Part shown: positions 11,183-35,040 of the stretch, one piece after another
Layout: each line of letters opens with the position of its first letter
How positions within the stretch are numbered: position 1 is the first letter of the stretch
IMG/VR virus record: IMGVR_UViG_3300039452_000187
Span: 33,555 to 97,554 of that record
Direction: 5' to 3' (one strand)
DNA length: 64,000 nt
From: a virus
Taxonomy: Duplodnaviria; Caudoviricetes
Program-made: the position numbers and the translations under genes
The notes under the pieces: generated by a model
Told to the model about the DNA's origin: nothing
What the model saw: the letters and a program-made list of their open reading frames with translations, nothing else
The model's database searches: none

Positions 11183-12562
11183 CTACCAGTTGGGCATGCG
11201 CGGGCGCTGAAAACGCCAATCATTCTGCTGCCGCTTCTGCCGCGCGTCCTGAGCCGTCTCGTTGAGCCAGGTGCCCATGTCGGTGCCGTCCTGGCGCTCG
11301 GCAATGCCAAGAATGCGGTTGACGCCGTTGGCGATGTCGCGGAGACTGCCGTGAATCTCGTTGCCGTTGCCGAAATTGCGGCTGAGCCAGTTGGCAATGG
11401 CCAAAGGCGTCAGGTTGGACAGGTCGAAATTGACAATGCCGCTGCCGATGTTGGCGAGTTTTTCACCGATCCAGTTGATGAGGGCCTGGAAGGCAATGGA
11501 GAGTTCGGCCGTGTCGTCGGCAAGCTGGTTATAGGCCCGCGACAGCTGCCGGGTGCTATCGGCCAACCGATCGCCCATCTGCATCTCACGCATGGCCCGC
11601 CGCGCATCGCTCTCGGCAAAGACCGCCGCCATGTTGCCGGAGAAGTTGGCGAGGCCACGCTGGGCTTCCAGGAGGCCGCCGGCAAAATCGCGTAGCAGCC
11701 CCGGCAAGGCGACGAACGCAACGCCGACCGCCAGGGCAGCGCTGGCCACACCCAGCAGACTCACCGTGGCCCCACCAGCCCCAGCGGCACCCGCCGCACC
11801 TGCGGCTCCCCCGCCGCCACCAGCCCCAGCGGCACCCGCCGCACCTGCGGCTCCCCCGGCCCCACCAGCCCCAGCGGCACCCGCCGCACCTGCGGCTCCC
11901 CCGGCGCCAGCGGCAAACGCCCGGCCGCCGCCAAAGAGGTTACTGACAATGTTGCCGAGCCCACCCAGGCCGCTCCGCACAATCCGGCCGCCCGTGGGGC
12001 CAAACTGGCGGCGCGCCGCCCGGCCGGCACGGGTACGAAAGCGCCGGAAGCCGCCGCGGAGTTGCTGGGAGCCGCCCGTGGCTCGCATGAAATTCCCGAT
12101 GGAACTTCCCACGGGTTGCCAGAGACCGCGCAACTGGTTCAAAAAGCGTTGGGCATCGGGCGGTAGCACCTGTTGCCAGATGCTGGGACCGTGGGCGGGC
12201 CGGGGCGGGCCGGCTGGTCCGGGTGGCGTACCTGGCGGCGGTGGCGGTGCGACTCCCGGGCCAGGCTGCACGTCCACATGGCCGGCGTGCAGCGTCAAGG
12301 TGGACAGGTTGGCGGTAAGCGCCAGCTGTAAAGGCGAGCCGAGGGACTGAAAGGCCGCCTGGACCGCAGCACCGATCTGGGACACCAGGGCACCGGCAAT
12401 GTTAGTGGCGAGAGCCGCGATATCAATGGGCGGGACGGGTGGTGGCGGCGGTGAGCCACCAGGAGGGCCACCGCCCGGTGGTGGCGGTGGGGGGGGCGGT
12501 GGAGGGGGAGGAAGGGGAGGAGGGGGTGGTGGTGGCGGGCTGCCTCCAGGAAATGCTGACAT
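11183..12562 (-). CDS. Short tape measure-like protein with poly-Pro N-terminus and Gly/Ala repeats
   Basis: Follows tail tube and frameshifting chaperones; Ala/Gly-rich, hydrophobic segment, helical C-terminus. Confidence 0.7.
   Translation of the reverse strand: MSAFPGGSPPPPPPPPLPPPPPPPPPPPPGGGPPGGSPPPPPVPPIDIAALATNIAGALVSQIGAAVQAAFQSLGSPLQLALTANLSTLTLHAGHVDVQPGPGVAPPPPPGTPPGPAGPPRPAHGPSIWQQVLPPDAQRFLNQLRGLWQPVGSSIGNFMRATGGSQQLRGGFRRFRTRAGRAARRQFGPTGGRIVRSGLGGLGNIVSNLFGGGRAFAAGAGGAAGAAGAAGAGGAGGAAGAAGAAGAGGGGGAAGAAGAAGAGGATVSLLGVASAALAVGVAFVALPGLLRDFAGGLLEAQRGLANFSGNMAAVFAESDARRAMREMQMGDRLADSTRQLSRAYNQLADDTAELSIAFQALINWIGEKLANIGSGIVNFDLSNLTPLAIANWLSRNFGNGNEIHGSLRDIANGVNRILGIAERQDGTDMGTWLNETAQDARQKRQQNDWRFQRPRMPNW
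11775..11902 (-). repeat. 45-bp-period tandem repeat x3 (GAAGAAGAAGAGGxG)
   Basis: ccagccccagcggcacccgccgcacctgcggctcccc at 11775, 11820 and 11865. Confidence 0.9.
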
Positions 12563-15687: not shown

Positions 15688-17499
15688 TTAGATCGGCACG
15701 AGGCCCACCTGGATGCAGGCGCCGGCCAGACCGGTCAGCGTGCCGCCCAGGGTGAGCGACAGCCGATCACCGGCCGCCAGCTGCAAGGTCGCCGCCGTGG
15801 CGATCAGTGTGCCACTCACCACCGTGTTGGCCGTGCCCGCCAGGGAGACCGTGCCCGTGAGCAGAGCCGTGCCGCCGCCCGGCGCAGTCGTCCCGGTATC
15901 CTTGTTGACTGTGACGGTGCCGGAGGAACTGGCCGTGCTGAAGACCGCTTTGAGGCTCTTGACCCGGTAAGCGCGGGTCGCCAGGAAGATCGTAAAGCTG
16001 CCCGCCGACGGAGCTGCCCCTTGGGTCTGAGCCCAGTTGGCCCAAGTGAGGCCATCCGAGACGCTGTTGATTTGGACTTCGCCGGCCGCCCCGGCTGTCC
16101 CGCCGGACGTGGTGCCGCCTGCACCGGGGACGAGGTTGATGTTGCCGCCTGCGCCACCGGTCCCGGCGCCGCTGGCATTGCCGCCCGCCCCGGCGGTCAA
16201 GGTGAGGGTGCCGCCGTTGCCGCCCGTGCCCGTGGCCGTGCCGCCACCGCCTGCACCGGTGAGGGCCAGCGCGCCGCCATTGCCACCCGTGCCCGCGCCG
16301 CTGGCCGCGATCCCCGCGCCGGAGACGAGGCTCGCCGCGCCGCCCGCCGCCCCGCCGCCCGTGCCCGCACCGGCGGTAATCGTGACCGCGCCACCGGTAC
16401 CGGAGGTTGCCCCGCCGGCCCCACCGGTAATCGTGACCGCGCCGCCACCGCCTGTGGCCCCGCCCGCGCCGCCAATGAGGCTCGCCGCTCCACCGGCCTG
16501 CGAACCGGACCCGGCGCCACCGGTCAAACTGGCCGCGCCACCGACAGAGTTGCCCGCCGTGCCCGCACCGCCCGTAATCGCCACGGCACCACCGGCGCCA
16601 CTCGTGGCCCCACCGGCACCACCCGTGAGCGTCAAGGCGCCACCACCCCCGGTCGCGCCACCGGCCCCGCCGATGAGGCTGGCAGCACCACCGTTGCCCG
16701 TGCCCGCCCCAGCACCACCGGTCATGCTGACCGCGCCACCGGCGTCATTGGTCGCCAGCGAGGCACCGCCCGTGATGGTGACCGCACCACCCGGACCCGT
16801 GGCCCCACCGTTGCCGCCCGCCCCGCCGGTAATAATCGTCGCGCCACCGGTCCCGGTCCCGGTTGCCGCACCGCCGATAAGGCTGGCCGCCCCGCCGTTG
16901 GAGTTGCCGGCCGTGGCCGCCCCACCGGTCATGCTGACCGCGCCACCGGCGCCGCTGCTGGAGCCGCCAGCCCCGCCTGCGATCGCGATAGCGCCGCCGT
17001 TGGCCGTGCTGTTGGCTGCGGCCTGGCCGGTGAAGGGGAAGGGAGTCGCCGCCGCTGTCAGCGAGGAGAATTGCCCCGCTGGGCCGGCGTAGCTGTTCAT
17101 GAGCACCACCTGGACCAGGCCGTACTGACCGGCCGGGGTGCTTTCGAGGGCGATGGCGCCCACATTTTGCGTCGTGCCGCCGCCGGGGGCTGTGACACCC
17201 GCGCCGTTGGCGTCGGATTTGAGGTAATCGCCGCGGGTAAAGCCGCCCGAGCCCGCGAGCAGATCGCAGATGTCGCCCAGGCCGAAGAGTTCCACCAGGT
17301 CGCCCTGCGCGGCCGCCAGCGTGGCGTTGCTGCCGGAGAGGCCGGGGGCATCGCGCGGACCCGCCTGGCTGATGCCGATGATGGCGCTGTTGGCGGTCGA
17401 CTGGATGCACATATTGTCGGCCGTCACGTCGATTTGCACGAACGTCGACACGCTGATGTTGCCGTTGGCGCGGAGTTGAGGTACTTGATTTCTGCTCAT
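15688..17499 (-). CDS. Capsid decoration/cement (DUF2190-like N-terminus) fused to Gly-rich 17-aa-repeat fibre
   Basis: AAAQGDLVELFGLG...GDYLKSDANGAGV, then about 20 GGAvxixGGAG repeats. Confidence 0.75.
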   Translation of the reverse strand: MSRNQVPQLRANGNISVSTFVQIDVTADNMCIQSTANSAIIGISQAGPRDAPGLSGSNATLAAAQGDLVELFGLGDICDLLAGSGGFTRGDYLKSDANGAGVTAPGGGTTQNVGAIALESTPAGQYGLVQVVLMNSYAGPAGQFSSLTAAATPFPFTGQAAANSTANGGAIAIAGGAGGSSSGAGGAVSMTGGAATAGNSNGGAASLIGGAATGTGTGGATIITGGAGGNGGATGPGGAVTITGGASLATNDAGGAVSMTGGAGAGTGNGGAASLIGGAGGATGGGGALTLTGGAGGATSGAGGAVAITGGAGTAGNSVGGAASLTGGAGSGSQAGGAASLIGGAGGATGGGGAVTITGGAGGATSGTGGAVTITAGAGTGGGAAGGAASLVSGAGIAASGAGTGGNGGALALTGAGGGGTATGTGGNGGTLTLTAGAGGNASGAGTGGAGGNINLVPGAGGTTSGGTAGAAGEVQINSVSDGLTWANWAQTQGAAPSAGSFTIFLATRAYRVKSLKAVFSTASSSGTVTVNKDTGTTAPGGGTALLTGTVSLAGTANTVVSGTLIATAATLQLAAGDRLSLTLGGTLTGLAGACIQVGLVPI

Positions 17500-18651: not shown

Positions 18652-20202
18652 CTACGATGCCGCCGTGGAGAATTTTTTCACGATCTCCGGCCACTGCTCG
18701 TCAGGATGGTCCTGAGCATATTGCAGGGCCTTCTGTTGCTGCTCGCGGCCGAATTGGGTGGGCTGCTCGCGGCCGGCTCGCTTTTCCGGCCGCTGCCGCT
18801 GCATCTGCAGCACTTCGGCGTCCGGGCGCGGGTTGCCGCCAACCATGCCGGCCAGGTCGGCGCCCACGGGTGCCCGGCTGTAGCACTGGCGGATTTCCTG
18901 CTCGCGCTCGCCGCGCTGCTCGTCGCTCATGCGGGCCATGCGCTCGACTTCCTTGCCGATATCCGGGATCCTGTACCCTTCCGCTTCGAGGGCATAACAG
19001 ACCCGCTCGGAGCGCTCGCGGTCGCGCTCGTACTTCAGCTGCACGTTCTCCTGCTGCGCCGCCGCCAGGCCCTGCTCCAGGCTCTGCAGGCGGGTTTCCA
19101 CGGTGCGCTCCTCGCGCACCTGGCGAATCTGTTGCTGCGTGCGCTGCATCCGCGCCGGCTCCTCTTTACGACCGCCCCCCAGACCGGGAACGAAGGTGTT
19201 GCCACCCGCAGCCGCACCGGCACCCGCTTGATACGGGGCACCGGAAGCCGGGGGCGTGCTCGGGGCGGCTGGAGGCGGTGTGCCGGCCCCTTCAGCGGGC
19301 GGCTCGGCGGCCTGCTCGGCGGAATATTTGGCGTGGCAGTCGTGGAGGTACTTGAGCGGGCCGTAGCTCTTGCTGGCGTGCTTCATCGAGTGCATGAAGC
19401 GGGCGTGGAACTCCGGGTCCGGTTCCGGCTCCGCTTCGGCTCCGGGCTGCTGACCAGCGGCCGGCTCCATCGGCTGTTCGTCCTGCTCGTAGCGACTCGG
19501 CTGCTGCCGGGAAGTGTGAGGCTGGTTGGCGTTGGCTTGGGTCATGGTGTCCTCATTTCCGAGGGTGAAATCATCAATCGAGTACCGCAGCCGGTCCTTG
19601 GCGCGGCTGTAGGTCGCTGGCAAGGCTGCTCCGTCGCCGCCATAGAGCCGAACCGTGCCGGGCGGCAGGTAGGCCGGGGGCGTGGCGGGATCTGTGAAAT
19701 CGTCGGTGAGCACTCCCAAATCGCGCTGCGGGGTCCGCCGCAGCAAGGCAATGGGGTCCAGGATCTTGTCGCGGAAATACAGCTCGACACTCCGGCGCGG
19801 AAAACTCATCGCGACCTTATACCGGTCGGGATAGAAGTAGAAATCCGCTAGGATTCCAAGCTTCTGCGCCGCCCCGAATCGCCCCACGTGGAAATTCCGT
19901 GCGTACCCGAGAATCTCCGGCTGCTGGTCCTCTGGTGCCCCCTGGATCGTGTGCCCCTTGGTCAGCGGGCAGACGTCGCCCGTGTCCCGCTCCCGCCGGT
20001 TGCAACTGTCGGCAATCTCTTGCAACTCTTGCGGCCCGAACCGTCGCTGCAGCCGCCCATCCTTGCCGTACTCGTCGTGCTCGTCGAACACCGGCACCGA
20101 CCGGCGAATCTTCCAGCGCGACGGCTGGTTGAGCTGGTCGATCAGGCTTTGGGTCGGGTCGGCTGATGCTACTGCCGCCGCCGCCGCCGGGGCCGTACTC
20201 AT
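18652..20202 (-). CDS. Prohead protease/scaffold (Mu gpI-like)
   Basis: GHT, FPRRSVEL and DPIALL...PQRDLG motifs; coiled-coil C-terminal half; upstream of capsid genes. Confidence 0.75.
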   Translation of the reverse strand: MSTAPAAAAAVASADPTQSLIDQLNQPSRWKIRRSVPVFDEHDEYGKDGRLQRRFGPQELQEIADSCNRRERDTGDVCPLTKGHTIQGAPEDQQPEILGYARNFHVGRFGAAQKLGILADFYFYPDRYKVAMSFPRRSVELYFRDKILDPIALLRRTPQRDLGVLTDDFTDPATPPAYLPPGTVRLYGGDGAALPATYSRAKDRLRYSIDDFTLGNEDTMTQANANQPHTSRQQPSRYEQDEQPMEPAAGQQPGAEAEPEPDPEFHARFMHSMKHASKSYGPLKYLHDCHAKYSAEQAAEPPAEGAGTPPPAAPSTPPASGAPYQAGAGAAAGGNTFVPGLGGGRKEEPARMQRTQQQIRQVREERTVETRLQSLEQGLAAAQQENVQLKYERDRERSERVCYALEAEGYRIPDIGKEVERMARMSDEQRGEREQEIRQCYSRAPVGADLAGMVGGNPRPDAEVLQMQRQRPEKRAGREQPTQFGREQQQKALQYAQDHPDEQWPEIVKKFSTAAS

Positions 20203-20246
20203 GGGGTCGAATGTGACACAGGGGGAAACAGAGATGCAAAAATCGG
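20203..20246 (-). promoter_or_regulatory. Putative leaderless promoter for the head operon
   Basis: TGTGT-CACATT-CGACCCC-ATG; no SD sequence. Confidence 0.4.
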
Positions 20247-20377
20247 CGTGTCAAGAACAAACCCGACGCCGGCAACAAGAATCCGCGCCGGGAACAGTGG
20301 GTCGCATTGACCGCACCAGCGGCGGCGTGGTCCAATCCAGGCAGACCAAAGAGAAAGGAACCAAAGGAGATCGTCGT

Positions 20378-21145
20378 ATGTCAACCGAAACTGAGGCCGC
20401 CGGCTTGCTGCCCGTCCCGTCCCTATGCGGCGTCTCGCCCACCTACGCCAGCGATGATTTCCGGGATGATGGCTGGGTCTACCGGCCCGACGGTTCCCGG
20501 CGCTGCAAATGGTTCGGCTGGCTGCCGCACACACGCCACCCCGAGCGCGGCCGCGTCCGGTTCTGGGAAGCGAAGTTGCAGTTGGAGTATTTGCCGGTGC
20601 TGGAAGCGAAGCGGTGGAAGTGGGAGCAGCGGCGCCGCAAGTACCTGGCAACCTCGTGGACCAGGGACGGTTTCGAGGAACGGTTGAAGGCGATGCTGCC
20701 GTGCGGCGGCTGGAGGGATAATGGCCGGAAGGCCCAAGGATGGGTGCTCCTGGAGTTGGCCAGAGGGAGCCAGGGGCAGGAGTGGATTAGCTGGAGCTGG
20801 CAGCCGGACCGGTTCAAGGACAAGCCGGAGCGAATCGAACAGGACATGGTGGACGAGTTTTTCCGGCGTTACCGCGCGGATATGTGGTGCAACTGGCGGG
20901 CAGCCCTGTTCCAGGCCGCCTTTTGCTACGCGATCGATACTAATTACGCAGGGCGAGAGCAGTTCCAGGGCAAGCGGGCAACGGCGACGCTGCACCTGGT
21001 CCTCAATGGCCGGGACTACTGGTTTAGGCGGGCCGAAACGCCGTCCCCGTGGTTCTTCGAGGCGCTGAGCTTGCCGGAAGATACCGTGACCGAGCGGTTC
21101 ACCGTGGAACTGCCGCCGGCGTCGGGCTGGGGCATCAGGGATTAG
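20378..21145 (+). CDS. Trp-rich hypothetical protein (accessory, opposite strand)
   Basis: AAGGAG RBS before MSTETE; 255 aa. Confidence 0.6.
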   Translation: MSTETEAAGLLPVPSLCGVSPTYASDDFRDDGWVYRPDGSRRCKWFGWLPHTRHPERGRVRFWEAKLQLEYLPVLEAKRWKWEQRRRKYLATSWTRDGFEERLKAMLPCGGWRDNGRKAQGWVLLELARGSQGQEWISWSWQPDRFKDKPERIEQDMVDEFFRRYRADMWCNWRAALFQAAFCYAIDTNYAGREQFQGKRATATLHLVLNGRDYWFRRAETPSPWFFEALSLPEDTVTERFTVELPPASGWGIRD

Positions 21146-21419
21146 CCAGCAGTAAGAGCAAGGTGGGCAGCGCTGCCGGTTCGACCAGGCGGCGAACGGT
21201 GAGCCAGGCCGTCCCGTCCATCCTGGTTGCGCTCCGGCGAACCCCGGCGGCTCAGTAAGGGTCCACGGTGCCGAGGTTGTGGCGCTGCTACTGCGAACGC
21301 CAGGGTCAGGGCTTTACATTCGGGGCGCCAGACGGATTGGATACCGCGACAGAAGCCGACCGAACTTCATCGCCCTGGAGCCCGGCTCGGATACGATCGG
21401 CGTGCGAGGCCGAACAGGC

Positions 21420-21803
21420 TCAATGGGAAACCACCTGGGTCTCGCCGGGTCGATAACTCCCGACGCCACCGGTATCCGTTGGTTCCTTGGTGTACTGATT
21501 GCGGCCGGCATGCCCGGCCGCGTTGCGATTCCCCGGCGGGGCACCGACGCGGCGCCGCGTGGTGGCTGCCCGCCGCAACCAGAAGAACTCCGTGACCCAG
21601 ACCCGGCGGCCGCGCTCGGAAATCCGCCGGTAGCCGAGGTCGTGGGCCAACCGCTCTAGCTCCCTGGTCGCGTTGCGCTGGGCGTCACCCTCCACCAGTT
21701 CCCCGAGATAGACGCACTGGCGGAAATCCTGGGGTGCCGTGCGAAAGAGGAAGGCATAGCGGCAGCGGAGGATGTAGAGCAGGCGGCTGTGGTGCTCGAA
21801 CAT
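21420..21803 (-). CDS. Hypothetical protein downstream of HTH gene
   Basis: AAGGA RBS; 127 aa. Confidence 0.45.
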   Translation of the reverse strand: MFEHHSRLLYILRCRYAFLFRTAPQDFRQCVYLGELVEGDAQRNATRELERLAHDLGYRRISERGRRVWVTEFFWLRRAATTRRRVGAPPGNRNAAGHAGRNQYTKEPTDTGGVGSYRPGETQVVSH

Positions 21804-21833
21804 GACGGCTGATCCTTCAGGGTTCCTGTCTGT

Positions 21834-22058
21834 CTATTCGTTCGGACTGCGAAAATCTTCGGTCGAAATGTCCAGGGTGTCCGCCAAGCGGCAGACCGTC
21901 TCCCAGAGCGGCTTGCCTTCGCCACGTTCCAGGGTGCTGAGGGTCTGCTTGGAAACGCCGGAGCGGCGGGCCAGCTCGTAGGCGGACAGACCCGCCTGGG
22001 TGCGCAGGGCACGGAGGCGGGCGGCGAAGGAAGCGGGGGCGGGTTTTTTCTTGGCCAT
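21834..22058 (-). CDS. XRE-family HTH regulator (Aca-like position)
   Basis: RLRALRTQAGLSAYELARRSGVSKQTLSTLERGEGKP. Confidence 0.9.
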   Translation of the reverse strand: MAKKKPAPASFAARLRALRTQAGLSAYELARRSGVSKQTLSTLERGEGKPLWETVCRLADTLDISTEDFRSPNE

Positions 22059-22087
22059 AACTCGTCACCTATCCAGTTGGCCGAACA

Positions 22088-22825
22088 TCACGATACGCGA
22101 ACACGTTCCGCCATGCTCCATCGTCCGTAGTAGTCGTTGCGATCCTCAATCCGAAACGTCCAGCGCGAGCCATCGGCATCATAGCCCAGCGCACCGTCGG
22201 GATAAACGGTAATCGCCAGCGTCTCCAGTCCCAGAATTGCGAGCAATTCCATGCCGACCAGCGTGAGACGCTGCATTCCCGCCGCGTCAATCGAAAAGCC
22301 ATCCTCTAAGGCTGTTGTGGCGCACGGCTTGTAGAGGCCACTAGAGCCGCTGATCGGCGATTCACAGGCCAGCACGTCCTCGACCTTCTTGGGCAGCGCT
22401 TTCTGTCGCTGCTTGACCAGCTTGGCGAGGGTCTGCTGACCAGCCCACACCTTGAGCGCTGGCACGCGGTCGGCCCACATGATCCGCACGCCACCGATTT
22501 CGCACCCGTGACGATTGGGAATGGCCGTCACTTCGGCCTCGCGTAACCAGTCTGCCACCCGCTGATGGTCTACTCGCCGCGCGGCCAGAAACTTTTCCCG
22601 GTCGTCCTCGTCGCCACCATCCTCCGACCAGTCATGGTCAGGCTCACTGCGGCCAATCCGGTCAAGGAGCCAGAGAAAACCGACCTGAGCAAAATACTGC
22701 GCTGGCTCGTGCCGGTCGCCCAATTCCATGTCGGGAATGCCGGCCTCGCGGTTCCGCTCGCGATCCCTGGTGCGAAAGCGGGCCACTCGCTCCAGCCGGG
22801 CGGCTTCATCGTGCATGCTGCTCAT
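22088..22825 (-). CDS. csb3: Stand-alone type I-G (I-U) Cas8/Csb3 (GSU0052-family)-like protein
   Basis: Motifs in family order: EPAQYFAQVGFL, DWS, WLREAEV, WAD..LKVWAGQQ, PISG, TALEDGFS, ELLAILGLE, WTFRIEDR. Confidence 0.7.
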   Translation of the reverse strand: MSSMHDEAARLERVARFRTRDRERNREAGIPDMELGDRHEPAQYFAQVGFLWLLDRIGRSEPDHDWSEDGGDEDDREKFLAARRVDHQRVADWLREAEVTAIPNRHGCEIGGVRIMWADRVPALKVWAGQQTLAKLVKQRQKALPKKVEDVLACESPISGSSGLYKPCATTALEDGFSIDAAGMQRLTLVGMELLAILGLETLAITVYPDGALGYDADGSRWTFRIEDRNDYYGRWSMAERVRVS

Positions 22826-22830
22826 AGGTC

Positions 22831-25800
22831 TTACTCCTTGACTGAGAGGTTGTGCTGTTCGCGGTAGGCCGCTTCGGGATCCTGGCGGTATTTTTCCAGC
22901 CAGCGCTTGGCCTCATCGCGCTGCTCATTAGTCATGTAGCCGGACACGTTGTAGTCATCATAAGGCTTCGCCTGCGCTTCGAGCGCCTTGATAGCCGCCG
23001 GGATCTTGGAGGTAATGACTTCCTCCGGCGTTGCCGGTCGGACCAGCACATGCTGCATGCGTCCTAGCCCACCAATCTCCGGGTCGCGCAACTCAAAGAC
23101 GTCGCTGCCGGCCAGGACGGTGTAATCCTTGCCGCGTACCTGGATGACCGCCCCCTTTTTCTTGGGCGGAAAGCCACCGGTTCCGCCCACCCCCAGATCC
23201 TGCTGCGCCTTGATGCGCCAGACTAGGGCATCGGCCGGAGGATTTTTCGGCAGGTCGCGCTTGGTCATGCCGAAATCCTTGGGCTTGTCGTAGAGCTTGC
23301 CAACCTTGCCCCGCGCCGCGTCGTAGACCTTTCGCGTGAACGCCGGCTTCAGCGCCTTCTCCATCACGTCGGAGAGGACGTAGGACAAACCTCGATTCGG
23401 ATCATCGGCTTTGATGCCCAGATCGCTGGCCAATCGCTCCAGTCGTGGCCGGCTCAGGCTGTAAATGCTATCTCGCCACTCTTTTTGGACGCGCTCAGGG
23501 TCATTTGTCGTGGCCGCCTGCGCCAGCAGATCCTTGGCGCGAGCAGCCCGTTCGGCGCGTCCGTGTTCGGCGGTCGCGGCCTCGTAGCGATCCTGCGCCG
23601 CCTTGAAAATATGCGTGTTGGGGTAAGTTCGATCCCGCTTCGCCGGATCGGCGCCCACGATTCGCTCTGCTTCCTCGCGCTCTTCGGCCGACAGATCGTT
23701 GAGCGTCGGCGCCATGTCAATCCAGCCCTGCACCGCCGCCGGATTGGCCACAAAGCGGCGCAAGAAGTCGAGCGCCGGTTCCCCTGGCTGCCGCTTCAGT
23801 GGGCCACCCTGTTGCGTTGCAGTCGGAGTAACTGCCGATACGGCTGGCTGGGACACGTCTGGCTGCTTGACCGACTCGGGCTTCGGTGCCGCTGCAGCCG
23901 GTGGCGCCAGGGCCGCCTTGGCATCCTCATAGCCTCGCCGCCAGCGATTGACTTTGCCGCCACTCCAGCCCCGCTCCTTCCATGATTCCTCCGTCTTGCC
24001 CGCCAGGGCATCGACGAATCCAGCTCGGAACTCGTCGGCCGGAGGCGTGCCCGCCTGAAGATTCCGTTTCGCCAGAGCTTCCGCCAACGCGACCTCGTGC
24101 CCCGCTGCCACCGTGTCAGATTGTGCCCCTGTCATTGCTGCCGTGCCGACCATCGCATTCCCCTCCGCAGGCTTCCCCGGTGTCGCGCCCGTCGCGTCAC
24201 CTGCAGAGATCATAGTCTGTTGGACCGGACTAGTCAAGTCTTCCTGACTAGAATTCGCGGAAGTTTTTTCGGGCGGGCTTGGGACCGGTGCCGGTTCGGT
24301 TTCCGGCGGCTCACTGGCCGATTGCTGGGCCGTTGCCGGTTGGTTCTCCTTCAAGCGGTACAGCGGCCCGCCGTATCGCCGTGCCACCTTCTCGACATGC
24401 CCGCTCCGTTCCAACTCTTCCAGGTGCCGTTGCAGCTCGGCGCTTGGCTTACCTGTCGCATCGGCCAGTTCATCGACCGACGCAATGCCGTGCTCGGAGA
24501 GGACCGCCAAGGTTGAGTGGTCGGCGCCGGAAATATTGGAGGGTTGTTCCACTGCCGGTGCCGGCGCCGGTGCCTGTGACTGTTTCCCTTTCAGTGCCTG
24601 TTCCACCACATCGGCGCCATTGCGGTAGTAGCCCGCCAACTCCTTATGCCCGGCCTTTTCCAGGGCGGGAATGAGCGTCTCGCGAATGCGCTGGACCACA
24701 TTCGCCAGCCCCTTCTCGCCTTGCCGCCGGTAGCCCGGATCGGCCGAGGTCATAAAGCGGTTCCAATTGGACGCTGCCGATCTCAGCCATTCGTTCGTAT
24801 GAAGTCCGAGCTGGGCATGAAGTTTGTCCAGGTGGCGTGTGTCCGCGTTGGCCAGTGCTTCCAACTTCTGGCCGATGTCGCGCGTAGGGTCGATCAAGAT
24901 AGCCCGATCGCGTGCGGAAAGGACATCAGTTTCGGCCGCAGCCTTCATCGGATCAGCGGTAGCCAGTGCGGACTGCGCGGTCTGCGGCTGGTTGGCCTGG
25001 TTGGCCTGGTTGCTCGGTGCTTGTTTCGACGACCGCTCAGCATCCGTCAACATCGCCGCAATCTCGTGCAGGCCGTTGACGCCAGCTTTTTCCATCGCGG
25101 ATTGCAGCAGCTGCCGCGCCAAGAAGCTACTCGGCAGCGCTGCAAGATGTTTCCTGGCGCCAAACGTCATCACGTCTTGTTCGGCCATATGCCTTGGGAT
25201 ACCTTTCTCCCAGGCAATGCCATCCTCTGGAACTTCCTTGCCGTTGGCGCGTTCCTCGGCCACTTCACGCTCGATCCGATCGAGATACCTCTTCTCCAAC
25301 TGCTGGGCCAAGTTTTTTAATCTGCCTTCACCGATCGCTTCGGCAAACTCCTTCCACTCTTTCATGTTGATCGTGCTCCGCTGCATCGCCTTGTAATTGG
25401 GATGCTCGCCAAACCACTTGAGTCGCCCCAGGGGACTGGCATTGATGTCATTCCACTTGACCTGCTGCTCCTGCCGCTCTTTCTCGTCCTGGATTTGTTC
25501 TGGCGTCATTGGCTCGCGCGGCTGCTTTTGCTTGGCATTTTCGCTGGGCGGCTTGCCCATCTCGCCGCCTTGCGGTTCTTTAGTCTGGGGCTTCTGGTCA
25601 GGTTTCACCGAGAGTCCGTGAATCGGCATCCACCGGCCGCCCTTGTAGAACTCACCGTTAACCGGGGACGTTTCGCCGCCAGCTTTCGCCTTCACCCAGG
25701 TTGTCCCTTTACTGTCCTTGAACTTGTTTGCATCGGCTGGAGGTTTTTCGGCTGGTTGCTCCGCGCCATCGGCGCCGCTTGTCTTCTCCGTTGCCGCGTC

Positions 25801-28800
25801 AATCTGCCCCGTGATGCCGTGCTCCTTGGCCCACTCCAGCATGTGCTTGTACGCCTTGAGTCGTTTGCCGAACTGCTCCCGCAACCCTTCCGCGTTGGGG
25901 TGCTCGGGCGGAATCCCGTCCAGGAACTTCTGATGCTCCTGGATCAGTTCTTCCAGCCGATGTACCGTGAGTTCGCCGTGGTGCGAGCGGAGCCCGGCGA
26001 AGCTGGCCTTAGCCCGGCGCAATTCCAGTTCTGACAACTCATGGCGGGTGTGTGGCTCGAGCTGCTCGTGCAACTTGGCGACGTCGATACTACCACGCGA
26101 CCGGCGCCGCTCGGTCTGCTCCTCCTTGGCCTTGTCAATCTTGGCCTTTTCGCTGGCCGGCAACTTTTCGACTTCCTTGGCCGGAATCCACTGCCCGCCT
26201 TTGTAGTGCCTGCCGTTGGCGCCAACGATGCCACCCTTCGGGGCGCGCTCCGCAGCGTATTGGTCCGCCTCCTCGCCCTGCTTAATGTCCCACTTCTTCC
26301 GTTCTTCATCCCAGGCCACGTACCAGCCCGTCCCTTCCAATTCCTCTGCCGCCGCCGCAAACTCGCTCTCGGGAATCTCCAGCCCGGCGTCGTCCAGGGC
26401 GTTCCAGCCGTCGGCATACCAGCGGGCCAGCTCCCGAGCTTGCACCGAAGAATCTGGGTCCGCTGCTTCCCGGTCATAGCGCTCCTGCGCGGGCGGCCCC
26501 ACCGCGATGCCGAAGTGGACGAACTTGCGGCCCTGGTCGTCCTGGTCGTGCCAGATTTGCTCGAAGCGCTCCACGGGGATCATGACCCGGCCGGGCGTGC
26601 GCTCCACATCTCGATCGTTGGTCACGTTGTCAATCGAACTGTCCTGGCAGAATACCTGCCCGAGCCCTACGCCAATGACCGTGAGATAGTGCCCGTAGTT
26701 AAACGAAGCCCCGGCGCTCCTTCTGTGCCCGTAATCTTGCACCGGGGTAATGACCGGCCAGCCGCGCCCGAAGTAGTCGGCCAAATCGTCCACGGCCATT
26801 CCATTCCGGGCTTCCACCTGCAAACCGAGCGAGCGCAGGTAATCAATGATGGCGTAGGGGTGCGTAGATTTGGCCAGCGTCGTGCCGAGCGCCTGCTTCC
26901 ACTCCGCCAGGCGCTCGGGGCCGACGCCGAAATACCGCCCCGTGGTCATCGAGGCACAGGCGCCGCAGCTGTAGTGATCGCGCTGGCGTATGTCCTGGAC
27001 CGGCAGCAGTTCACTGCCAGGCGCGGCCGCAGTGAGAGCGTCGGTACGGTCATAGCGGGCGGGCTGGTCGGCGCGGGCCAGGTCGATCTTCGGGTTGCTG
27101 GGATCAAAGGTGCCCGCGTTGTCCACAGCCTTGATTTGGTGAGGCTCGAAGGCAATCCAGACCCGGTGCTGCTGAACCCCTTCGATTTTTTTGCCGCGGC
27201 GAGACCCATAATGACCCACATGGGTAATCCCGTCATACCCTTGTGCGGCTAAATGCTTCTGGAGTCCCGACTTACTCAAGCCTCCTTGACGGACAACCTC
27301 TTCATAACTCGCGTGGGGTCGCTGAACCTCGTGGACATCGGGCTGAAAACTGATGTTGTAAGGCCGCAGGGCCTTGCGAAATTCCGGGTGGGATTGATAG
27401 AGGCCCCAGAGCCGTTGCGGTTCGGCCGTCATCATTTGCTTCATTTGTTGCCAGGTGAAATTCATCGACACGTTCGGTAACGATTCAAGCGCCGCGTGCA
27501 TCTGTTGCCAGTGCTGATCGGTCGGCGTGACTGCCTCATCACTGACCAGCAGAATGGGCCGTGTCTGTTTGATGCGAAACCGACTGCGCGCCGGCTCGGG
27601 AAGGTCTGCTGTAGCAATCTTGCCACGGTCAATGTCAAACGGCTTGCGGATGTTGAGGTACACGCTAAAAACGTGTCCCTTGGGCCGTTCCACCCAGCCG
27701 GCAAACTGGTTGCCGAACTCTGCATTGAGAATGTGCTCACCCTTGGCAACGGCGACACCGACGTTGCTCTCTGTTGAGTCAAGAATCATCGCTTCCAGCT
27801 GATGCAACTGGTATTGGCGAGACTCCAAATCTTCAGCCTGCCGCTGGAGCGATCGTTGAGCGACACGGTCCTGAGTCAACCTCAATTCCTTCACTGTGTA
27901 CTGCAGATCGGCCGCCACCTTCGCGGCTTTTTGCTTGAGCGCCGGCAGTAACTCGCGGCGCACTCGTTCCACCGGCACGGCGAGTTTACCGCCAGCCCTG
28001 TCGACCAGGCCACTCCCGTGCTGCTTGTAGTCCTCCGCGATCGCCGCCGCGTCCGTAAAATAGAACCCTGGTCCATAGAACAGCTTTTCGCCCTTGGCGA
28101 GTTTGCTTTTCAAGAACTCGTCAAAGCGGTCCCAAGGGGTGCCGTGGTACACCACCTTGGGCATCAGGTTCTCAACGACGACCGAATGTTCCACCGGTGC
28201 CTGCTGCTGCGGCTCACCCGTTTCCGGGTCGATGACTTTGGACGCATGGGCCGCATCGTGCTCCCAATCGCCGAACCAGGCACGAAACGCGGGAGCGCGG
28301 GTGCCAAGCTCCTGATACTCCTTGCGCAGCCGGGCTGCTTTCGCTTCCGGCGTCTCTGGCGCCGCTGCGGCCGGAGCTTGCTTGCCTTGTGCATCCTGAC
28401 CTGGTTCCGGGCGCGGCCCCGGATCGTCCTCATGCTCGCCCTCGTGCTCGTGCCCGCCCGGCATTTCGTCCCGGTACAACACTCTCCCCGTGCGGTTGCT
28501 CTTCCAGCCCTTACCGCCGCGCGGTCCCGTGTACGGCGTCCACTCCCCGCCCGCGCTGCCGCCGCCCTGCGGGTCCAGGAAATTGGTTTGCCCGGCCGCG
28601 TCCTTTTTCTTCCGCGCGTACTGGTCCGCCTCTGGCTGGTAGGTGCCGTCCCACTCCAGCACCAACTCCCGCAGCTGCTCGGGATCCTTCACCGGCTCGG
28701 CCTCGCTCAGACTGAACGGGCCGCCGCCGCGATGGTAGTACAGGTCATGCCCGGGACTATCATTCCGGTCGTCCACCACCACGACATGCTCCGCGATCTC

Positions 28801-29127
28801 TGGGGCCTCCACCTGGTCTGTCGTGCCGCCCTGCGGCAGCGTCACCAGGCAGATCCGGTGCAAAGAATCGTCATGCGGATCGGTGAGGTAGAGCCAGCCG
28901 CCGCGCGGCACCGCCCCCAGCACGTCCGCCAGGACGGCCGCGTTCTGGACGTTGACGGGATCAGGCGGCGGCAAAGGCTCGGTCAGCTCGTTTGTGTTGT
29001 CCGATTCGGCCGCGTACTTCCCGACTGAGGCTGCCGCCAAGACTTCTTCCAGTTCGGCGTCGGTCACTGCCGTAGCATCCGTCAGACCGCTGAGAAAGGA
29101 CCGAAACTCCTGCACTAGCGCTGTCAC
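22831..29127 (-). CDS. 2098-aa polyvalent head-associated protein: ADP-ribosyltransferase-like domain, C39-like peptidase, wHTH
   Basis: FRAWFGDWE..SKVID..GEP..VVYHGT..GPGFYFT..VYLNIRKP..GYDGI..IAFEPHQIK; QRDHYSCG..GHYLTVIG..QDS. Confidence 0.8.
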   Translation of the reverse strand: MTALVQEFRSFLSGLTDATAVTDAELEEVLAAASVGKYAAESDNTNELTEPLPPPDPVNVQNAAVLADVLGAVPRGGWLYLTDPHDDSLHRICLVTLPQGGTTDQVEAPEIAEHVVVVDDRNDSPGHDLYYHRGGGPFSLSEAEPVKDPEQLRELVLEWDGTYQPEADQYARKKKDAAGQTNFLDPQGGGSAGGEWTPYTGPRGGKGWKSNRTGRVLYRDEMPGGHEHEGEHEDDPGPRPEPGQDAQGKQAPAAAAPETPEAKAARLRKEYQELGTRAPAFRAWFGDWEHDAAHASKVIDPETGEPQQQAPVEHSVVVENLMPKVVYHGTPWDRFDEFLKSKLAKGEKLFYGPGFYFTDAAAIAEDYKQHGSGLVDRAGGKLAVPVERVRRELLPALKQKAAKVAADLQYTVKELRLTQDRVAQRSLQRQAEDLESRQYQLHQLEAMILDSTESNVGVAVAKGEHILNAEFGNQFAGWVERPKGHVFSVYLNIRKPFDIDRGKIATADLPEPARSRFRIKQTRPILLVSDEAVTPTDQHWQQMHAALESLPNVSMNFTWQQMKQMMTAEPQRLWGLYQSHPEFRKALRPYNISFQPDVHEVQRPHASYEEVVRQGGLSKSGLQKHLAAQGYDGITHVGHYGSRRGKKIEGVQQHRVWIAFEPHQIKAVDNAGTFDPSNPKIDLARADQPARYDRTDALTAAAPGSELLPVQDIRQRDHYSCGACASMTTGRYFGVGPERLAEWKQALGTTLAKSTHPYAIIDYLRSLGLQVEARNGMAVDDLADYFGRGWPVITPVQDYGHRRSAGASFNYGHYLTVIGVGLGQVFCQDSSIDNVTNDRDVERTPGRVMIPVERFEQIWHDQDDQGRKFVHFGIAVGPPAQERYDREAADPDSSVQARELARWYADGWNALDDAGLEIPESEFAAAAEELEGTGWYVAWDEERKKWDIKQGEEADQYAAERAPKGGIVGANGRHYKGGQWIPAKEVEKLPASEKAKIDKAKEEQTERRRSRGSIDVAKLHEQLEPHTRHELSELELRRAKASFAGLRSHHGELTVHRLEELIQEHQKFLDGIPPEHPNAEGLREQFGKRLKAYKHMLEWAKEHGITGQIDAATEKTSGADGAEQPAEKPPADANKFKDSKGTTWVKAKAGGETSPVNGEFYKGGRWMPIHGLSVKPDQKPQTKEPQGGEMGKPPSENAKQKQPREPMTPEQIQDEKERQEQQVKWNDINASPLGRLKWFGEHPNYKAMQRSTINMKEWKEFAEAIGEGRLKNLAQQLEKRYLDRIEREVAEERANGKEVPEDGIAWEKGIPRHMAEQDVMTFGARKHLAALPSSFLARQLLQSAMEKAGVNGLHEIAAMLTDAERSSKQAPSNQANQANQPQTAQSALATADPMKAAAETDVLSARDRAILIDPTRDIGQKLEALANADTRHLDKLHAQLGLHTNEWLRSAASNWNRFMTSADPGYRRQGEKGLANVVQRIRETLIPALEKAGHKELAGYYRNGADVVEQALKGKQSQAPAPAPAVEQPSNISGADHSTLAVLSEHGIASVDELADATGKPSAELQRHLEELERSGHVEKVARRYGGPLYRLKENQPATAQQSASEPPETEPAPVPSPPEKTSANSSQEDLTSPVQQTMISAGDATGATPGKPAEGNAMVGTAAMTGAQSDTVAAGHEVALAEALAKRNLQAGTPPADEFRAGFVDALAGKTEESWKERGWSGGKVNRWRRGYEDAKAALAPPAAAAPKPESVKQPDVSQPAVSAVTPTATQQGGPLKRQPGEPALDFLRRFVANPAAVQGWIDMAPTLNDLSAEEREEAERIVGADPAKRDRTYPNTHIFKAAQDRYEAATAEHGRAERAARAKDLLAQAATTNDPERVQKEWRDSIYSLSRPRLERLASDLGIKADDPNRGLSYVLSDVMEKALKPAFTRKVYDAARGKVGKLYDKPKDFGMTKRDLPKNPPADALVWRIKAQQDLGVGGTGGFPPKKKGAVIQVRGKDYTVLAGSDVFELRDPEIGGLGRMQHVLVRPATPEEVITSKIPAAIKALEAQAKPYDDYNVSGYMTNEQRDEAKRWLEKYRQDPEAAYREQHNLSVKE

Positions 29128-29138
29128 ACTCGCACCCC

Positions 29139-34904: not shown

Positions 34905-35040
34905 AGCAGGCCGTTCCAATAAAGGATCAGCCGCATGCCAGACCAAGCGGGAAGAGTGCGCGGCCGTGCCGGTGATGAGCCGGCAGCCGGGAAGTCAGGA
35001 TGCTTGGATTCTATCCGAGAAAGGGAAAGGTTGCGAAAGC

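What the first reader, a model, noticed from the sequence alone, without database searches (positions are those of the whole stretch)
21834..22825. Solo type I-G Cas8 (Csb3)-like gene plus HTH: candidate decoy anti-CRISPR or Cascade-hijacking subunit
Seen: a 245-aa ORF 5 nt downstream of the head polyprotein, followed by an XRE HTH. No cas5, cas7, cas3 or type I array was recognised in the window. Recalled family motifs of GSU0052/Csb3 (NPGQ.FAC.G.LE, FDWS, L.EAEV, W.D...K.WAG, P..G.F.FDPR..W.A.D.GFS, E.LAA.GL, F.F.L..R) all have counterparts in order, but FDPR is replaced by LYKP. Known: viral Cas5-, Cas11- and Cas3-derived proteins can act as Acrs. Inference: a dominant-negative large subunit that poisons host I-G Cascade (PAM reading, Cas3 recruitment) or changes its PAM specificity. 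The phage would then carry both its own type V weapon and a shield against host type I-G.
Basis: partly seen in the sequence, partly recalled or inferred. Interest (0 to 1): 0.88.

Follow-up and report, generated by a model that had tools for sequence, protein, structure and literature searches.

The report
Solo Cas8g2-like gene on phage
A temperate phage carries a lone, strongly diverged copy of the large subunit (Cas8g2/Csb3) of type I-G CRISPR systems; it belongs to a big clade found so far only on phages and plasmids, and is most likely a Cas-derived anti-CRISPR, though that function is untested.

Summary
ORF 22088-22825 (-), 245 aa, starts 5 nt after the stop of a 2098-aa polyvalent virion protein. 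A 74-aa XRE HTH gene follows at 21834-22058 (-).

The Cas8g2/Csb3 resemblance is real homology over the full length. Taken alone the protein scores only 21 bits against TIGR04106 (cut-off 125). A profile of 27 close homologues matches a profile of 36 canonical Cas8g2 proteins at 99.5% probability (E 1.7e-22, 200 columns). The AF2 model (pLDDT 90) has the solved type I-G Cas8g as its best structural match, followed by Cas8a, Cas8b and Cas8c. A canonical Cas8g2 model gives the same ranking.

The gene stands alone. The complete 97.5-kb phage has no Csb1, Csb2 or Cas3. It does carry its own Cas12f-like effector with a 7-repeat array.

About 80 sequence clusters of such non-canonical proteins separate from canonical Cas8g2. 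Every sampled context is a phage or plasmid without cas genes, including a Planctopirus limnophila phage-plasmid. These proteins keep the fold core but lack residues invariant in canonical Cas8g2. No neighbouring gene is conserved, and the HTH is not a conserved partner, although one natural HTH fusion exists.

Best reading (about 0.5): a defective-subunit anti-CRISPR against type I-G, like AcrIB3 and AcrIB4. Host and activity are unknown.

The parts
22088..22825 (-). 245-aa solo Cas8g2/Csb3-like protein: Cas8 N-terminal-domain fold, diverged, with an extra N-terminal helix and an acidic loop at residues 58-80
   Evidence: Sequence: ORF; TIGR04106 E 1.7e-4 and PADLOC Cas8g 4.5e-5; hhalign against canonical Cas8g2 99.5%, E 1.7e-22. 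Structure: AF2 pLDDT 90, pTM 0.86; VIA-align top hit 8b2x_M (type I-G Cas8g), Z 7.5, 172 aligned residues. Charge: net -7 in residues 58-80.
22834..22839 (-). AAGGAG ribosome-binding site, 8 nt before the ATG and overlapping the last codons of the upstream 2098-aa gene. This implies co-transcription and translational coupling with that gene.
   Evidence: Sequence read directly. No sigma-70-like promoter was found in 20100-23300.
21834..22058 (-). 74-aa XRE-family helix-turn-helix protein, starting 29 nt after the Cas8g2-like stop. A possible Aca-like regulator, but not a conserved partner.
   Evidence: HTH_31 1e-15, HTH_3 7e-14; RstR/HipB-like hits. The downstream genes of close homologues are not HTHs. 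Its HTH is 43% identical over 40 aa to the N-terminal HTH of the natural fusion protein P0039.
21420..21803 (-). 127-aa ORF starting 30 nt after the HTH stop on the same strand. Possibly a third gene of the cassette; whether it is a real gene is uncertain.
   Evidence: ORF list and sequence. No Pfam or PHROG family. The Atlas model is poor (pLDDT 0.40).
22831..29127 (-). Context: 2098-aa polyvalent virion protein (ART-PolyVal domain, weak C39 peptidase, winged HTH), immediately upstream and in the same transcription direction
   Evidence: PF18760 1.3e-16. The upstream 1935-aa ORF carries Portal_Mu at 1.4e-38.

Best explanation
The 245-aa gene encodes a full-length but strongly diverged homologue of Cas8g2 (Csb3/Csx14). 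Cas8g2 is the small 'large subunit' of the cas3-cas8g2-csb1-csb2 variant of type I-G CRISPR-Cas.

Shown:
- Homology and a shared Cas8 N-terminal-domain fold.
- The gene is the only type I-G component in a complete temperate phage genome.
- It belongs to a large clade distinct from canonical Cas8g2. All sampled contexts of that clade are phages or plasmids, and no partner gene is conserved.
- The clade keeps the structural core (WAGQQT, G-x-S-G-L-D, D-x-GFS, ELLA-x-GL, the C-terminal R-x-x-Y-Y).
- It has uniformly lost residues invariant in canonical Cas8g2: N16, the Cys-Cys pair of NPGQFFACCG, W157, and the roughly 20-residue insertion carrying W209.

Inferred mechanism: the protein is a Cas-derived anti-CRISPR that works by subunit mimicry. 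It would take the place of the host Cas8g2 on the Csb1 (Cas7)/crRNA backbone of type I-G Cascade. The resulting complexes would fail in PAM reading, DNA opening or Cas3 recruitment. This would protect the phage or prophage, much as AcrIB3 (a Cas5 homologue) does for type I-B; AcrIB4 (a Cas8b C-terminal-domain homologue) also inhibits type I-B, by a mechanism that is still unclear.

The adjacent XRE HTH may regulate the cassette in this phage, but it is not part of a conserved module.
For: Homology:
- TIGR04106 is hit by the protein (E 1.7e-4), by 20 of 27 close homologues and by 65 of 76 distant representatives (best 5e-50).
- hhalign gives 99.5% probability, E 1.7e-22, over query 42-250 and template 14-256.
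- phmmer links the protein directly to P0107 (E 1.4e-4), which lies in a Cas3 / P0107 / Cas_GSU0053 / Cas_GSU0054 operon.
- A full canonical locus is seen in L013.

Fold:
- VIA-align ranks 8b2x_M (Z 7.5), 7r2k_Y (4.9), 8fcj_I (3.5) and 8g9u_H (2.4).
- A canonical Cas8g2 model gives the same chains in the same order (11.3, 8.9, 4.1, 2.5).

Solo status:
- The complete direct-terminal-repeat phage has no Csb1, Csb2 or Cas3 C-terminal domain.
- Three other viral records carrying a homologue have no Csb1.

Clade and context:
- In the tree, canonical proteins form one side of a branch (SH-aLRT 96) and 79 non-canonical proteins the other.
- Against a canonical HMM the non-canonical proteins score mostly 25-70 bits, versus 352 for P0107.
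- Ten sampled contexts are phage or mobile-element DNA without cas genes.
- One of these is Plim_4299 on the Planctopirus limnophila phage-plasmid CP001745.1.
- Pattern scans of viral contigs with the canonical profile confirmed no canonical Cas8g2.
- No neighbouring gene is conserved within 3.5 kb on either side across 12 loci.
- IS elements flank the gene in two relatives.

Residue pattern: the conservation table is.

Other:
- The phage is temperate: it has a tyrosine integrase.
- A natural XRE-HTH fusion to a Cas8g2-like domain exists (P0039).
- Precedent: AcrIB3, AcrIB4 and 358 orphan viral cas genes, two of them listed as 'cas8u1 CAS-I-U' (bioRxiv 10.1101/2023.06.24.545427). See also PMC13131331.
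Against: - No functional, binding or expression data exist.
- The host is unknown, so it is not shown that it has a Cas8g2-type I-G system.
- The gene is translationally coupled to a late virion gene, and no promoter or operator-like inverted repeat lies upstream. This is unlike typical early acr operons.
- The HTH neighbour is not conserved.
- The protein is larger (245 aa) than most Acrs and only mildly acidic (pI 5.4).
- Loss of canonical invariant residues is equally compatible with a new function unrelated to CRISPR.
- The canonical sample used for the tree and the residue table is narrow: all 36 proteins are relatives of P0107.
Confidence: 0.5

Rival explanations
1. Exapted protein with a role unrelated to CRISPR. 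The Cas8 N-terminal-domain fold would have been recruited by phages as a nucleic-acid- or protein-binding module. Possible roles are a regulator, a replication or partition accessory, or a virion-associated or injected protein expressed with the polyvalent head protein.
For: - Placement between the polyvalent protein and the scaffold-like genes, and translational coupling to a virion gene.
- An HTH fusion in P0039 suggests a DNA-related role.
- Residues invariant in canonical Cas8g2 are lost throughout the clade.
- In the P. limnophila phage-plasmid the gene lies just after parB.
Against: - The position in the genome varies between relatives: an accessory region, a run of small early-type ORFs, next to IS elements. 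This argues against a fixed structural or replication role.
- The motifs retained are those shared with Cascade-resident Cas8g2.
- Published tested cases of orphan viral Cas homologues acted on CRISPR.
Confidence: 0.25
2. Cascade re-programming rather than inhibition. The phage protein would assemble into host type I-G Cascade as an alternative large subunit. It would change PAM specificity or uncouple Cas3, turning host Cascade into a tool for the (pro)phage. Examples are silencing, superinfection exclusion, or tolerance of self-targeting spacers.
For: - The protein is a full-length homologue with the core interface-like motifs retained.
- The phage is temperate and a relative is a phage-plasmid, both with long residence in the host.
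- The clade is large and diverse, as expected for a host-specific partner.
Against: - No type I-like array or mini-array lies on the phage. The only array has Cas12f-type repeats beside cas12f.
- There is no precedent for this mechanism, and nothing here distinguishes it from simple poisoning.
Confidence: 0.1
3. Non-functional remnant of a type I-G locus once carried by a phage, now a decaying passenger gene.
For: - One relative (P0024/L003) is split by a frameshift into 175-aa and 60-aa pieces.
- The gene is often next to IS elements.
Against: - Twenty-six intact homologues at 51-85% identity share 15 invariant and about 40 nearly invariant columns.
- About 80 clusters at 50% identity have a conserved core.
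- AF2 confidence is high.
- No other cas remnants are present in a complete genome.
Confidence: 0.05
4. Accessory subunit of the phage's own type V-F-like (Cas12f/Cas12u1) system.
For: Both are present in the same genome.
Against: - The two are about 19 kb apart.
- Three other viral records with the Cas8g2-like gene, one 98% complete and one a whole plasmid, have no Cas12f-like gene.
- No Cas12 was called in any sampled neighbourhood.
Confidence: 0.03

Closest known systems
Cas8g2 / Csb3 / Csx14 (NCBIfam TIGR04106, GSU0052 family), large subunit of the compact type I-G variant
   Same: - Homologous over essentially the whole length (hhalign 99.5%).
- Similar size (245 aa versus about 255-280 aa).
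- Same Cas8 N-terminal-domain fold, with the same ranking of structural neighbours.
- Shared motifs: LK-x-WAGQQT, G-x-x-G-x-D, D-x-GFS, ELLA-x-GL and the C-terminal Arg.
   Different: - Scores 21 bits against a 125-bit cut-off.
- Lacks N16, the Cys-Cys pair, W157, and the roughly 20-aa insertion with W209 and L213.
- Has an extra N-terminal helix (residues 2-27) and an acidic loop where the canonical protein has a beta-hairpin.
- Never found beside cas3, csb1 or csb2 in the sampled loci.
- Falls on the other side of the tree from canonical proteins.
[quoted passage not shown]
   Same: - Homologues of Cascade subunits encoded on mobile elements, outside CRISPR loci.
- They form their own clades apart from the bona fide Cas proteins.
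- The proposed mechanism is the same: a faulty subunit assembling into Cascade.
   Different: - Those derive from type I-B Cas5 and from the last 90 residues of Cas8b, at 38% identity to the cognate protein. Here the homologue is a whole type I-G large subunit and far more diverged.
- The activity of those proteins is experimentally shown. Here it is only inferred.
- In this paper library no anti-CRISPR against type I-G turned up.
Orphan viral 'cas8u1 (CAS-I-U)' hits in Table S3 of Katz et al.
   Same: A catalogue entry of solo type I-U/I-G large-subunit-like genes on IMG/VR viral contigs.
   Different: - Only two contigs, found by tblastn at 29-32% identity over about 320-345 aa, and untested.
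- Whether they belong to this clade was not checked.
- By that paper's stated filters, this phage would probably have been dropped, because it has a CRISPR array within 20 kb of the gene.
Cas8g1 / Csx17 N-terminal domain (PDB 8b2x chain M, Thioalkalivibrio sulfidiphilus type I-G effector)
   Same: Best structural match: Z 7.5, 172 aligned residues, chain residues 9-383. This is the domain that contacts Cas7.1, Cas7.2 and the crRNA (PMC9638904).
   Different: The match is at the fold level only (12% identity in the structural alignment). Csx17 also has a C-terminal Cas11-like helical bundle, which is absent here.

Membership tests
Cas8g2/Csb3 equivalog (TIGR04106) | Score at or above the curated cut-off (125 bits) | tested here: not met
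   21.3 bits, E 1.7e-4, covering only residues 120-201. The six-frame genome search gave 12 bits.
Cas8g2/Csb3 superfamily (homology) | Significant full-length profile-profile match to canonical Cas8g2 | tested here: met
   hhalign 99.5%, E 1.7e-22, 200 columns. A home-built canonical HMM scores the protein at 54 bits.
Cas8g2/Csb3 superfamily (homology) | Cas8 N-terminal-domain fold | tested here: met
   Top VIA-align hit 8b2x_M, Z 7.5, rmsd 4.4, 172 aligned residues. Next come Cas8a, Cas8b and Cas8c chains. The canonical control gives the same order, with Z 11.3 and 8.9 for the first two. Z 7.5 alone is middling; the concordant ranking is what gives it weight.
Cas8g2/Csb3 equivalog (TIGR04106) | Canonical invariant residues: the N and the Cys-Cys pair of NPGQFFACCG, W157, and the insertion with W209/L213 | tested here: not met
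   These positions are E40, Q47 and V48, T170, and a deletion in the window protein. They match the canonical residue in 0-26% of 96 non-canonical proteins.
Cas8g2/Csb3 equivalog (TIGR04106) | Encoded within a type I-G cas operon (cas3-cas8g2-csb1-csb2) | tested here: not met
   No PF09617, PF09609 or PF22590 match anywhere in the complete 97,554-bp genome.
Cas-derived anti-CRISPR (AcrIB3/AcrIB4 type) | Cas homologue on a mobile element, outside any CRISPR-Cas locus of its own type | tested here: met
   and the contexts.
Cas-derived anti-CRISPR (AcrIB3/AcrIB4 type) | Forms a clade separate from the bona fide Cas proteins | tested here: met
   Quick maximum-likelihood tree: 23 canonical proteins lie on one side of a branch (SH-aLRT 96) and 79 non-canonical proteins on the other. 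Caveats: the canonical sample is narrow, the tree is the quick version, and it is rooted at the midpoint only.
Cas-derived anti-CRISPR (AcrIB3/AcrIB4 type) | Inhibits the cognate CRISPR-Cas system | not testable with these tools
   This needs an interference assay.
Cas-derived anti-CRISPR (AcrIB3/AcrIB4 type) | The host carries the cognate (Cas8g2-type I-G) system | not testable with these tools
   The host is unknown. Genome-collection scans found nothing. The genome of P. limnophila DSM 3776 is not held.
acr-aca operon | HTH (Aca) gene adjacent, and the association conserved across homologues | tested here: inconclusive
   Adjacent in the window. In relatives an HTH is fused in P0039, two genes upstream in L002, and three genes downstream of P0059. 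It is absent next to the gene in L003, L004, L005, L009 and L021.
acr-aca operon | Own promoter with an inverted-repeat operator upstream of the acr gene | tested here: not met
   No sigma-70-like promoter in 20100-23300. No inverted repeat was found upstream of the start codon; the three found all lie inside the two genes. The gene start is coupled to the upstream ORF. The promoter scan assumes an E. coli-type consensus.

The most novel reading that the evidence does not exclude
The phage- and plasmid-borne Cas8g2-like clade may not be made of inhibitors. Its members could be alternative large subunits that assemble into host type I-G Cascade and re-programme it, for example by changing the PAM or uncoupling Cas3. 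The mobile element would then use the host's crRNA-guided complex for its own ends, such as tolerance of self-targeting, silencing, or exclusion of competitors. In some lineages the protein is fused to, or paired with, an XRE HTH.
Probability: 0.1. Interest if true: 0.85.

Novelty: new member of a known kind. Interest (0 to 1): 0.6.

Why it matters
I found no anti-CRISPR against type I-G in the paper library searched. Type I-G is the least understood type I effector, and how its large subunit reads the PAM and recruits Cas3 is an open question (PMC9638904).

If this clade inhibits I-G Cascade by subunit replacement, three things follow:
- It would extend the 'viral cas gene to Acr' route from type I-B to I-G.
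- It would provide an off-switch for type I-G genome-editing tools.
- It would give a natural set of about 100 separation-of-function variants. These show which Cas8g2 residues are needed for assembly (retained) and which for activity (lost: N16, the Cys-Cys pair, W157 and the W209 insertion).

The case also shows a phage that carries its own CRISPR system (Cas12f-like) together with a likely counter-CRISPR gene.

Tried and rejected
Searches on the 245-aa protein that found nothing:
- Pfam and PHROGs.
- PDB sequence profile search: only chance ribosomal S5 hits at E above 0.5.
- Foldseek against PDB and against BFVD viral models: nothing at E 0.001 or better. Only the exhaustive VIA-align search found the Cas8 chains.
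- tblastn against 50,697 GenBank phage records: no match.
- Pattern scan of GTDB species genomes with the non-canonical profile: 10 pattern hits, none confirmed. This is one pattern, so it is weak evidence of absence. An isolate's plasmid does carry a member.
- Metagenome scan: only three short loci.
- Viral scan with the canonical profile: none.

Host inference failed:
- The phage's CRISPR repeat has no exact match in the genome collection.
- TerL is only about 50% identical to Thermobifida and Streptomyces phage terminases, which does not identify a host.
- 'relatives' is not available for virus records.
- The genomes of P. limnophila and of locus L013 are not held.

Regulatory and RNA scans of 20-23 kb:
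- No sigma-70 promoter or terminator, no Rfam family, no tRNA.
- Only short inverted repeats inside the coding sequences.

Other checks:
- Conserved-neighbour search: nothing apart from the closely related pair L003/L004.
- Array spacers match nothing fetched.
- The 127-aa and 255-aa neighbouring ORFs have no family.
- Earlier findings of this scan: none.
- hmmalign to the canonical HMM dropped the N-terminal half of most non-canonical proteins. It was replaced by a MAFFT alignment.
Full report
**What is there**

On the minus strand of the window three ORFs follow one another. The first is a 2098-aa ORF (22831-29127). The second is a 245-aa ORF (22088-22825), whose ATG lies 5 nt after the first ORF's TAA. 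The third is a 74-aa ORF (21834-22058), which starts 29 nt further on. An AAGGAG ribosome-binding site at 22839-22834 overlaps the last codons of the big gene.

The 2098-aa protein is a polyvalent protein with an ART-PolyVal domain (1.3e-16), a weak C39 peptidase match and a winged HTH. The 1935-aa ORF before it contains a Mu-type portal. The 74-aa protein is an XRE-family HTH (HTH_31 1e-15).

The window is bases 33555-97554 of a 97,554-bp IMG/VR virus record. That record has direct terminal repeats and is rated 100% complete. It encodes a large terminase, two DNA methyltransferases and a RecD2-like helicase, and a tyrosine integrase. It is therefore a temperate tailed phage.

**Is the Cas8/Csb3 resemblance real?**

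Taken alone the protein has no Pfam or PHROG family. It gives only a sub-threshold hit to NCBIfam TIGR04106, 'type I-G CRISPR-associated protein Cas8g2': E 1.7e-4 and 21 bits against a cut-off of 125, covering residues 120-201. PADLOC Cas8g gives 4.5e-5. Three independent lines turn this into firm homology.

1. Independent hits by relatives. Twenty of 27 close homologues (51-85% identity) hit TIGR04106 on their own. So do 65 of 76 more distant representatives, with a best E of 5e-50.

2. Profile against profile. The profile of the 27 homologues matches a profile of 36 canonical Cas8g2 proteins with 99.5% probability and E 1.7e-22 over 200 columns. This covers query 42-250 and template 14-256, essentially both proteins end to end. 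One direct phmmer hit, P0107 (E 1.4e-4), is encoded between a Cas3 gene and the Cas_GSU0053 (Csb1/Cas7) and Cas_GSU0054 (Csb2/Cas5-6) genes. A second canonical locus, L013, shows the complete Cas3 / Cas8g2 / Csb1 / Csb2 / Cas2 / Cas4-Cas1 arrangement.

3. Structure. The AF2 model built on the alignment is confident (pLDDT 90, pTM 0.86). Foldseek found nothing in the PDB. The exhaustive VIA-align search put chain M of 8b2x first. That chain is the Cas8g large subunit of the solved type I-G effector: Z 7.5, rmsd 4.4, 172 aligned residues, chain residues 9-383. Next came the large subunits of type I-A (7r2k_Y, Z 4.9), I-B CAST (8fcj_I, 3.5) and I-C (8g9u_H, 2.4). Z 7.5 alone is middling, so I ran a control. 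A model of canonical Cas8g2 (pLDDT 92) retrieves the same chains in the same order, with Z 11.3, 8.9, 4.1 and 2.5.

The phage protein thus has the Cas8 N-terminal-domain fold, more diverged than the canonical protein. In the type I-G structure this domain contacts Cas7.1, Cas7.2 and the crRNA (PMC9638904).

**It is solo**

Six-frame searches of the whole phage genome find no Csb1 (PF09617), no Csb2 (PF09609) and no Cas3 C-terminal domain (PF22590), even at E up to 1. The only TIGR04106 match is this gene.

The phage does have a CRISPR system of another type. A 678-aa Cas12f/Cas12u1-like protein lies at 41913-43949 (-), with PADLOC E 4.5e-77. Beside it is an array of seven 37-nt repeats and six spacers at 41250-41720. 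The two are about 19 kb apart. Three other viral records that carry a Cas8g2-like gene have no Cas12f-like gene. I therefore reject a functional link between the two.

**A clade on mobile elements**

The exhaustive representative search returned 84 clusters at 50% identity. Against a canonical HMM only three of them look canonical: P0107 at 352 bits, P0100 at 121 and P0108 at 93. Apart from a few spurious hits to long, unrelated proteins, the rest score about 14-70 bits, mostly 25-70, like the window protein at 54.

In a quick maximum-likelihood tree the 23 canonical proteins sit on one side of a branch (SH-aLRT 96). The 79 non-canonical proteins sit on the other side, in three sub-clades. The canonical sample is narrow and the root is arbitrary.

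Every neighbourhood I could retrieve for non-canonical members is phage or mobile-element DNA without cas genes:
- L002/P0010: CsrA and an HTH upstream, IS1595 downstream.
- P0001: two contigs, with ISL3 downstream.
- L005/P0005: near a Mu F gene.
- L003/P0024: a frameshifted copy in a 96-kb contig.
- P0059: methyltransferase, integrase, ParB.
- L007/P0066.
- P0229: a long run of small ORFs in a 150-kb contig.
- L018.
- Plim_4299 (P0042), on the 37-kb plasmid CP001745.1 of Planctopirus limnophila DSM 3776.

That P. limnophila plasmid encodes an integrase, ParB, Mu Gam, terminase, portal, ClpP protease and capsid. It is a phage-plasmid, and IMG/VR also lists it as a virus.

Pattern scans with the canonical profile found no canonical Cas8g2 in viral contigs. 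A pattern scan for non-canonical members found none in the species-genome collection; this is weak evidence because it rests on one pattern. GenBank phages have no match.

An all-against-all comparison of ORFs within 3.5 kb of the gene in 12 loci found no conserved neighbour, apart from the closely related pair L003/L004. The gene therefore behaves as a self-sufficient, mobile accessory gene.

**What changed relative to canonical Cas8g2**

I aligned 36 canonical, 26 close and 70 distant non-canonical proteins together.

Positions kept in the non-canonical clade (canonical numbering):
- A22 and G25.
- W110 of LK-x-WAGQQT (retained in 100%).
- G147, G150 and D152.
- G163, F164 and S165 of D-x-GFS.
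- E180 and G186 of ELLA-x-GL.
- R241.

Positions replaced or deleted throughout the non-canonical clade:
- N16, G18, Q19 and F20.
- The Cys-Cys pair C23/C24 of NPGQFFACCG.
- W97, W157 and A184.
- The roughly 20-residue insertion that carries W209 and L213.

The models add further differences. The phage protein has an extra N-terminal helix (residues 2-27). It also has an acidic loop (residues 58-80, net charge -7) followed by a long helix, where the canonical protein has a beta-hairpin.

The pattern is a retained core with uniformly lost family-invariant residues. That is what a subunit mimic which still assembles but no longer works would look like. It would also fit a new, unrelated function.

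**The HTH**

The XRE HTH is adjacent here, but the pairing is not conserved:
- Downstream of the closest homologues lies a small Cys-rich protein (L003, L004) or an unrelated 74-aa protein (L005).
- There is no HTH next to the gene in the P. limnophila element or in the 150-kb contig.
- An HTH gene lies two genes upstream in L002 and three genes downstream of P0059.
- One representative, P0039, is a natural fusion of an N-terminal XRE HTH (HTH_3 3.9e-14) to a complete Cas8g2-like domain. Its HTH is 43% identical over 40 residues to the window's HTH.

This is reminiscent of HTH-Acr fusions, but it is a single case. XRE HTHs are also very common in phages.

No sigma-70-type promoter, terminator or operator-like inverted repeat precedes the gene. 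A classical acr-aca operon is therefore not established. A 127-aa ORF (21420-21803) follows the HTH on the same strand and has no family.

**Most likely function**

Published work shows that phage- and plasmid-borne homologues of Cascade subunits act as anti-CRISPRs. AcrIB3, a Cas5 homologue, does so by assembling into a defective complex. AcrIB4, a homologue of the Cas8b C-terminal domain, also inhibits type I-B, by a mechanism that is still unclear. These proteins form clades separate from the true Cas proteins. Hundreds of orphan viral cas genes exist, and two hits are labelled 'cas8u1 CAS-I-U' in that paper's Table S3 (bioRxiv 10.1101/2023.06.24.545427; PMC13131331).

The present gene meets the criteria that can be tested computationally. 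It is a Cas homologue, it is on a mobile element, it is outside a cognate locus, it falls in its own clade, and it has no conserved partner. It sits in a temperate phage, where a slow 'poison the newly assembled complex' mechanism makes sense.

I therefore put about 0.5 on a Cas8g2-derived anti-CRISPR that replaces the host large subunit on the Csb1/crRNA backbone.

Against this:
- The host and its CRISPR content are unknown.
- The gene is coupled to a late virion gene.
- Nothing has been measured.

Rivals:
- A CRISPR-unrelated exaptation (0.25).
- Re-programming rather than inhibition of host Cascade (0.1).
- A decaying remnant (0.05).
- An accessory of the phage's type V system (0.03).

**Novelty and verdict**

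The family is not annotated anywhere I could search. In this paper library no anti-CRISPR against type I-G turned up. The kind of thing, a viral Cas homologue as candidate Acr, is known, and orphan I-U cas8 hits have been catalogued. I file it as a new member of a known kind.

It is of good but not exceptional interest (0.6). The clade is large and diverse, and it targets the least understood type I effector. It is directly testable with existing E. coli type I-G reconstitutions.

Noticed in passing
window 41250-43949: The phage carries its own CRISPR-Cas system. A 678-aa Cas12f/Cas12u1-like effector lies at 41913-43949 (-), PADLOC E 4.5e-77. Downstream is an array of seven identical 37-nt repeats (GTCTCAGTAACCAACCCACTGAGCAGGGTCTTCCAAC on the + strand) with six 34-37-nt spacers at 41250-41720.
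   Followed up: partly
window 22831-34946: Two giant virion genes lie in a row. One is a 1935-aa ORF with a Mu-type portal domain at residues 108-481. The other is a 2098-aa polyvalent protein with an ART-PolyVal ADP-ribosyltransferase domain, a weak C39 peptidase match and a winged HTH. A different ART, AcrIF11, is known to ADP-ribosylate Cas8f. No link to that was tested here.
   Followed up: no
P0039 (267-aa metagenomic protein): A natural fusion of an N-terminal XRE HTH (residues 7-67) to a complete Cas8g2-like domain. Its HTH is 43% identical over 40 aa to the window's 74-aa HTH. Its genomic context was not retrieved.
   Followed up: partly
L019/L021 (Planctopirus limnophila DSM 3776 plasmid CP001745.1, 37,010 bp): The plasmid is a phage-plasmid: integrase, CsrA, ParB, Mu Gam, TerS/TerL, portal, ClpP, capsid. 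It carries a solo Cas8g2-like gene (Plim_4299, 203 aa) shortly after parB. This is a cultured, tractable system for testing the family. Whether the chromosome has type I-G could not be checked.
   Followed up: partly
L007 3507-4232: On the phage-like contig carrying P0066 (another solo Cas8g2-like protein), a 241-aa gene 1.9 kb upstream has a weak precomputed Pfam hit to Csf3, the type IV Cas5. This may be a second orphan Cas-like gene in the same element. It was not verified.
   Followed up: no
L003 10001-10722; L004 3292-4590; L002 7606-8569: One relative (P0024) is split by a frameshift into 175-aa and 60-aa pieces. In two relatives an IS transposase (ISL3, IS1595) sits directly downstream of the gene. 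This suggests the gene lies in a recombination-prone accessory spot.
   Followed up: partly
window 20203-22830: The Cas8g2-like gene, the HTH, a 127-aa ORF (21420-21803, -) and an opposite-strand 255-aa ORF (20378-21145, +) form a roughly 2.6-kb insert. It lies between the polyvalent protein gene and the next large minus-strand ORF (18652-20202, 516 aa, no family). None of the extra ORFs has a recognisable family or a homologue next to other Cas8g2-like genes.
   Followed up: partly
genome G000:C1:4779-5309 (-), outside the window: A tyrosine recombinase/integrase domain (PF00589, 33 bits) lies in a 418-aa open frame. No ParB was found. The phage is probably temperate and integrating.
   Followed up: partly
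window 11768-11909 and 16359-16741: Tandem repeats lie inside large minus-strand ORFs. One has a 45-nt unit in 3.2 copies. The other has a 198-nt unit in 1.9 copies, G+C-rich with CCACC/GGC-rich units. They are probably repetitive tail-fibre or collagen-like segments.
   Followed up: no
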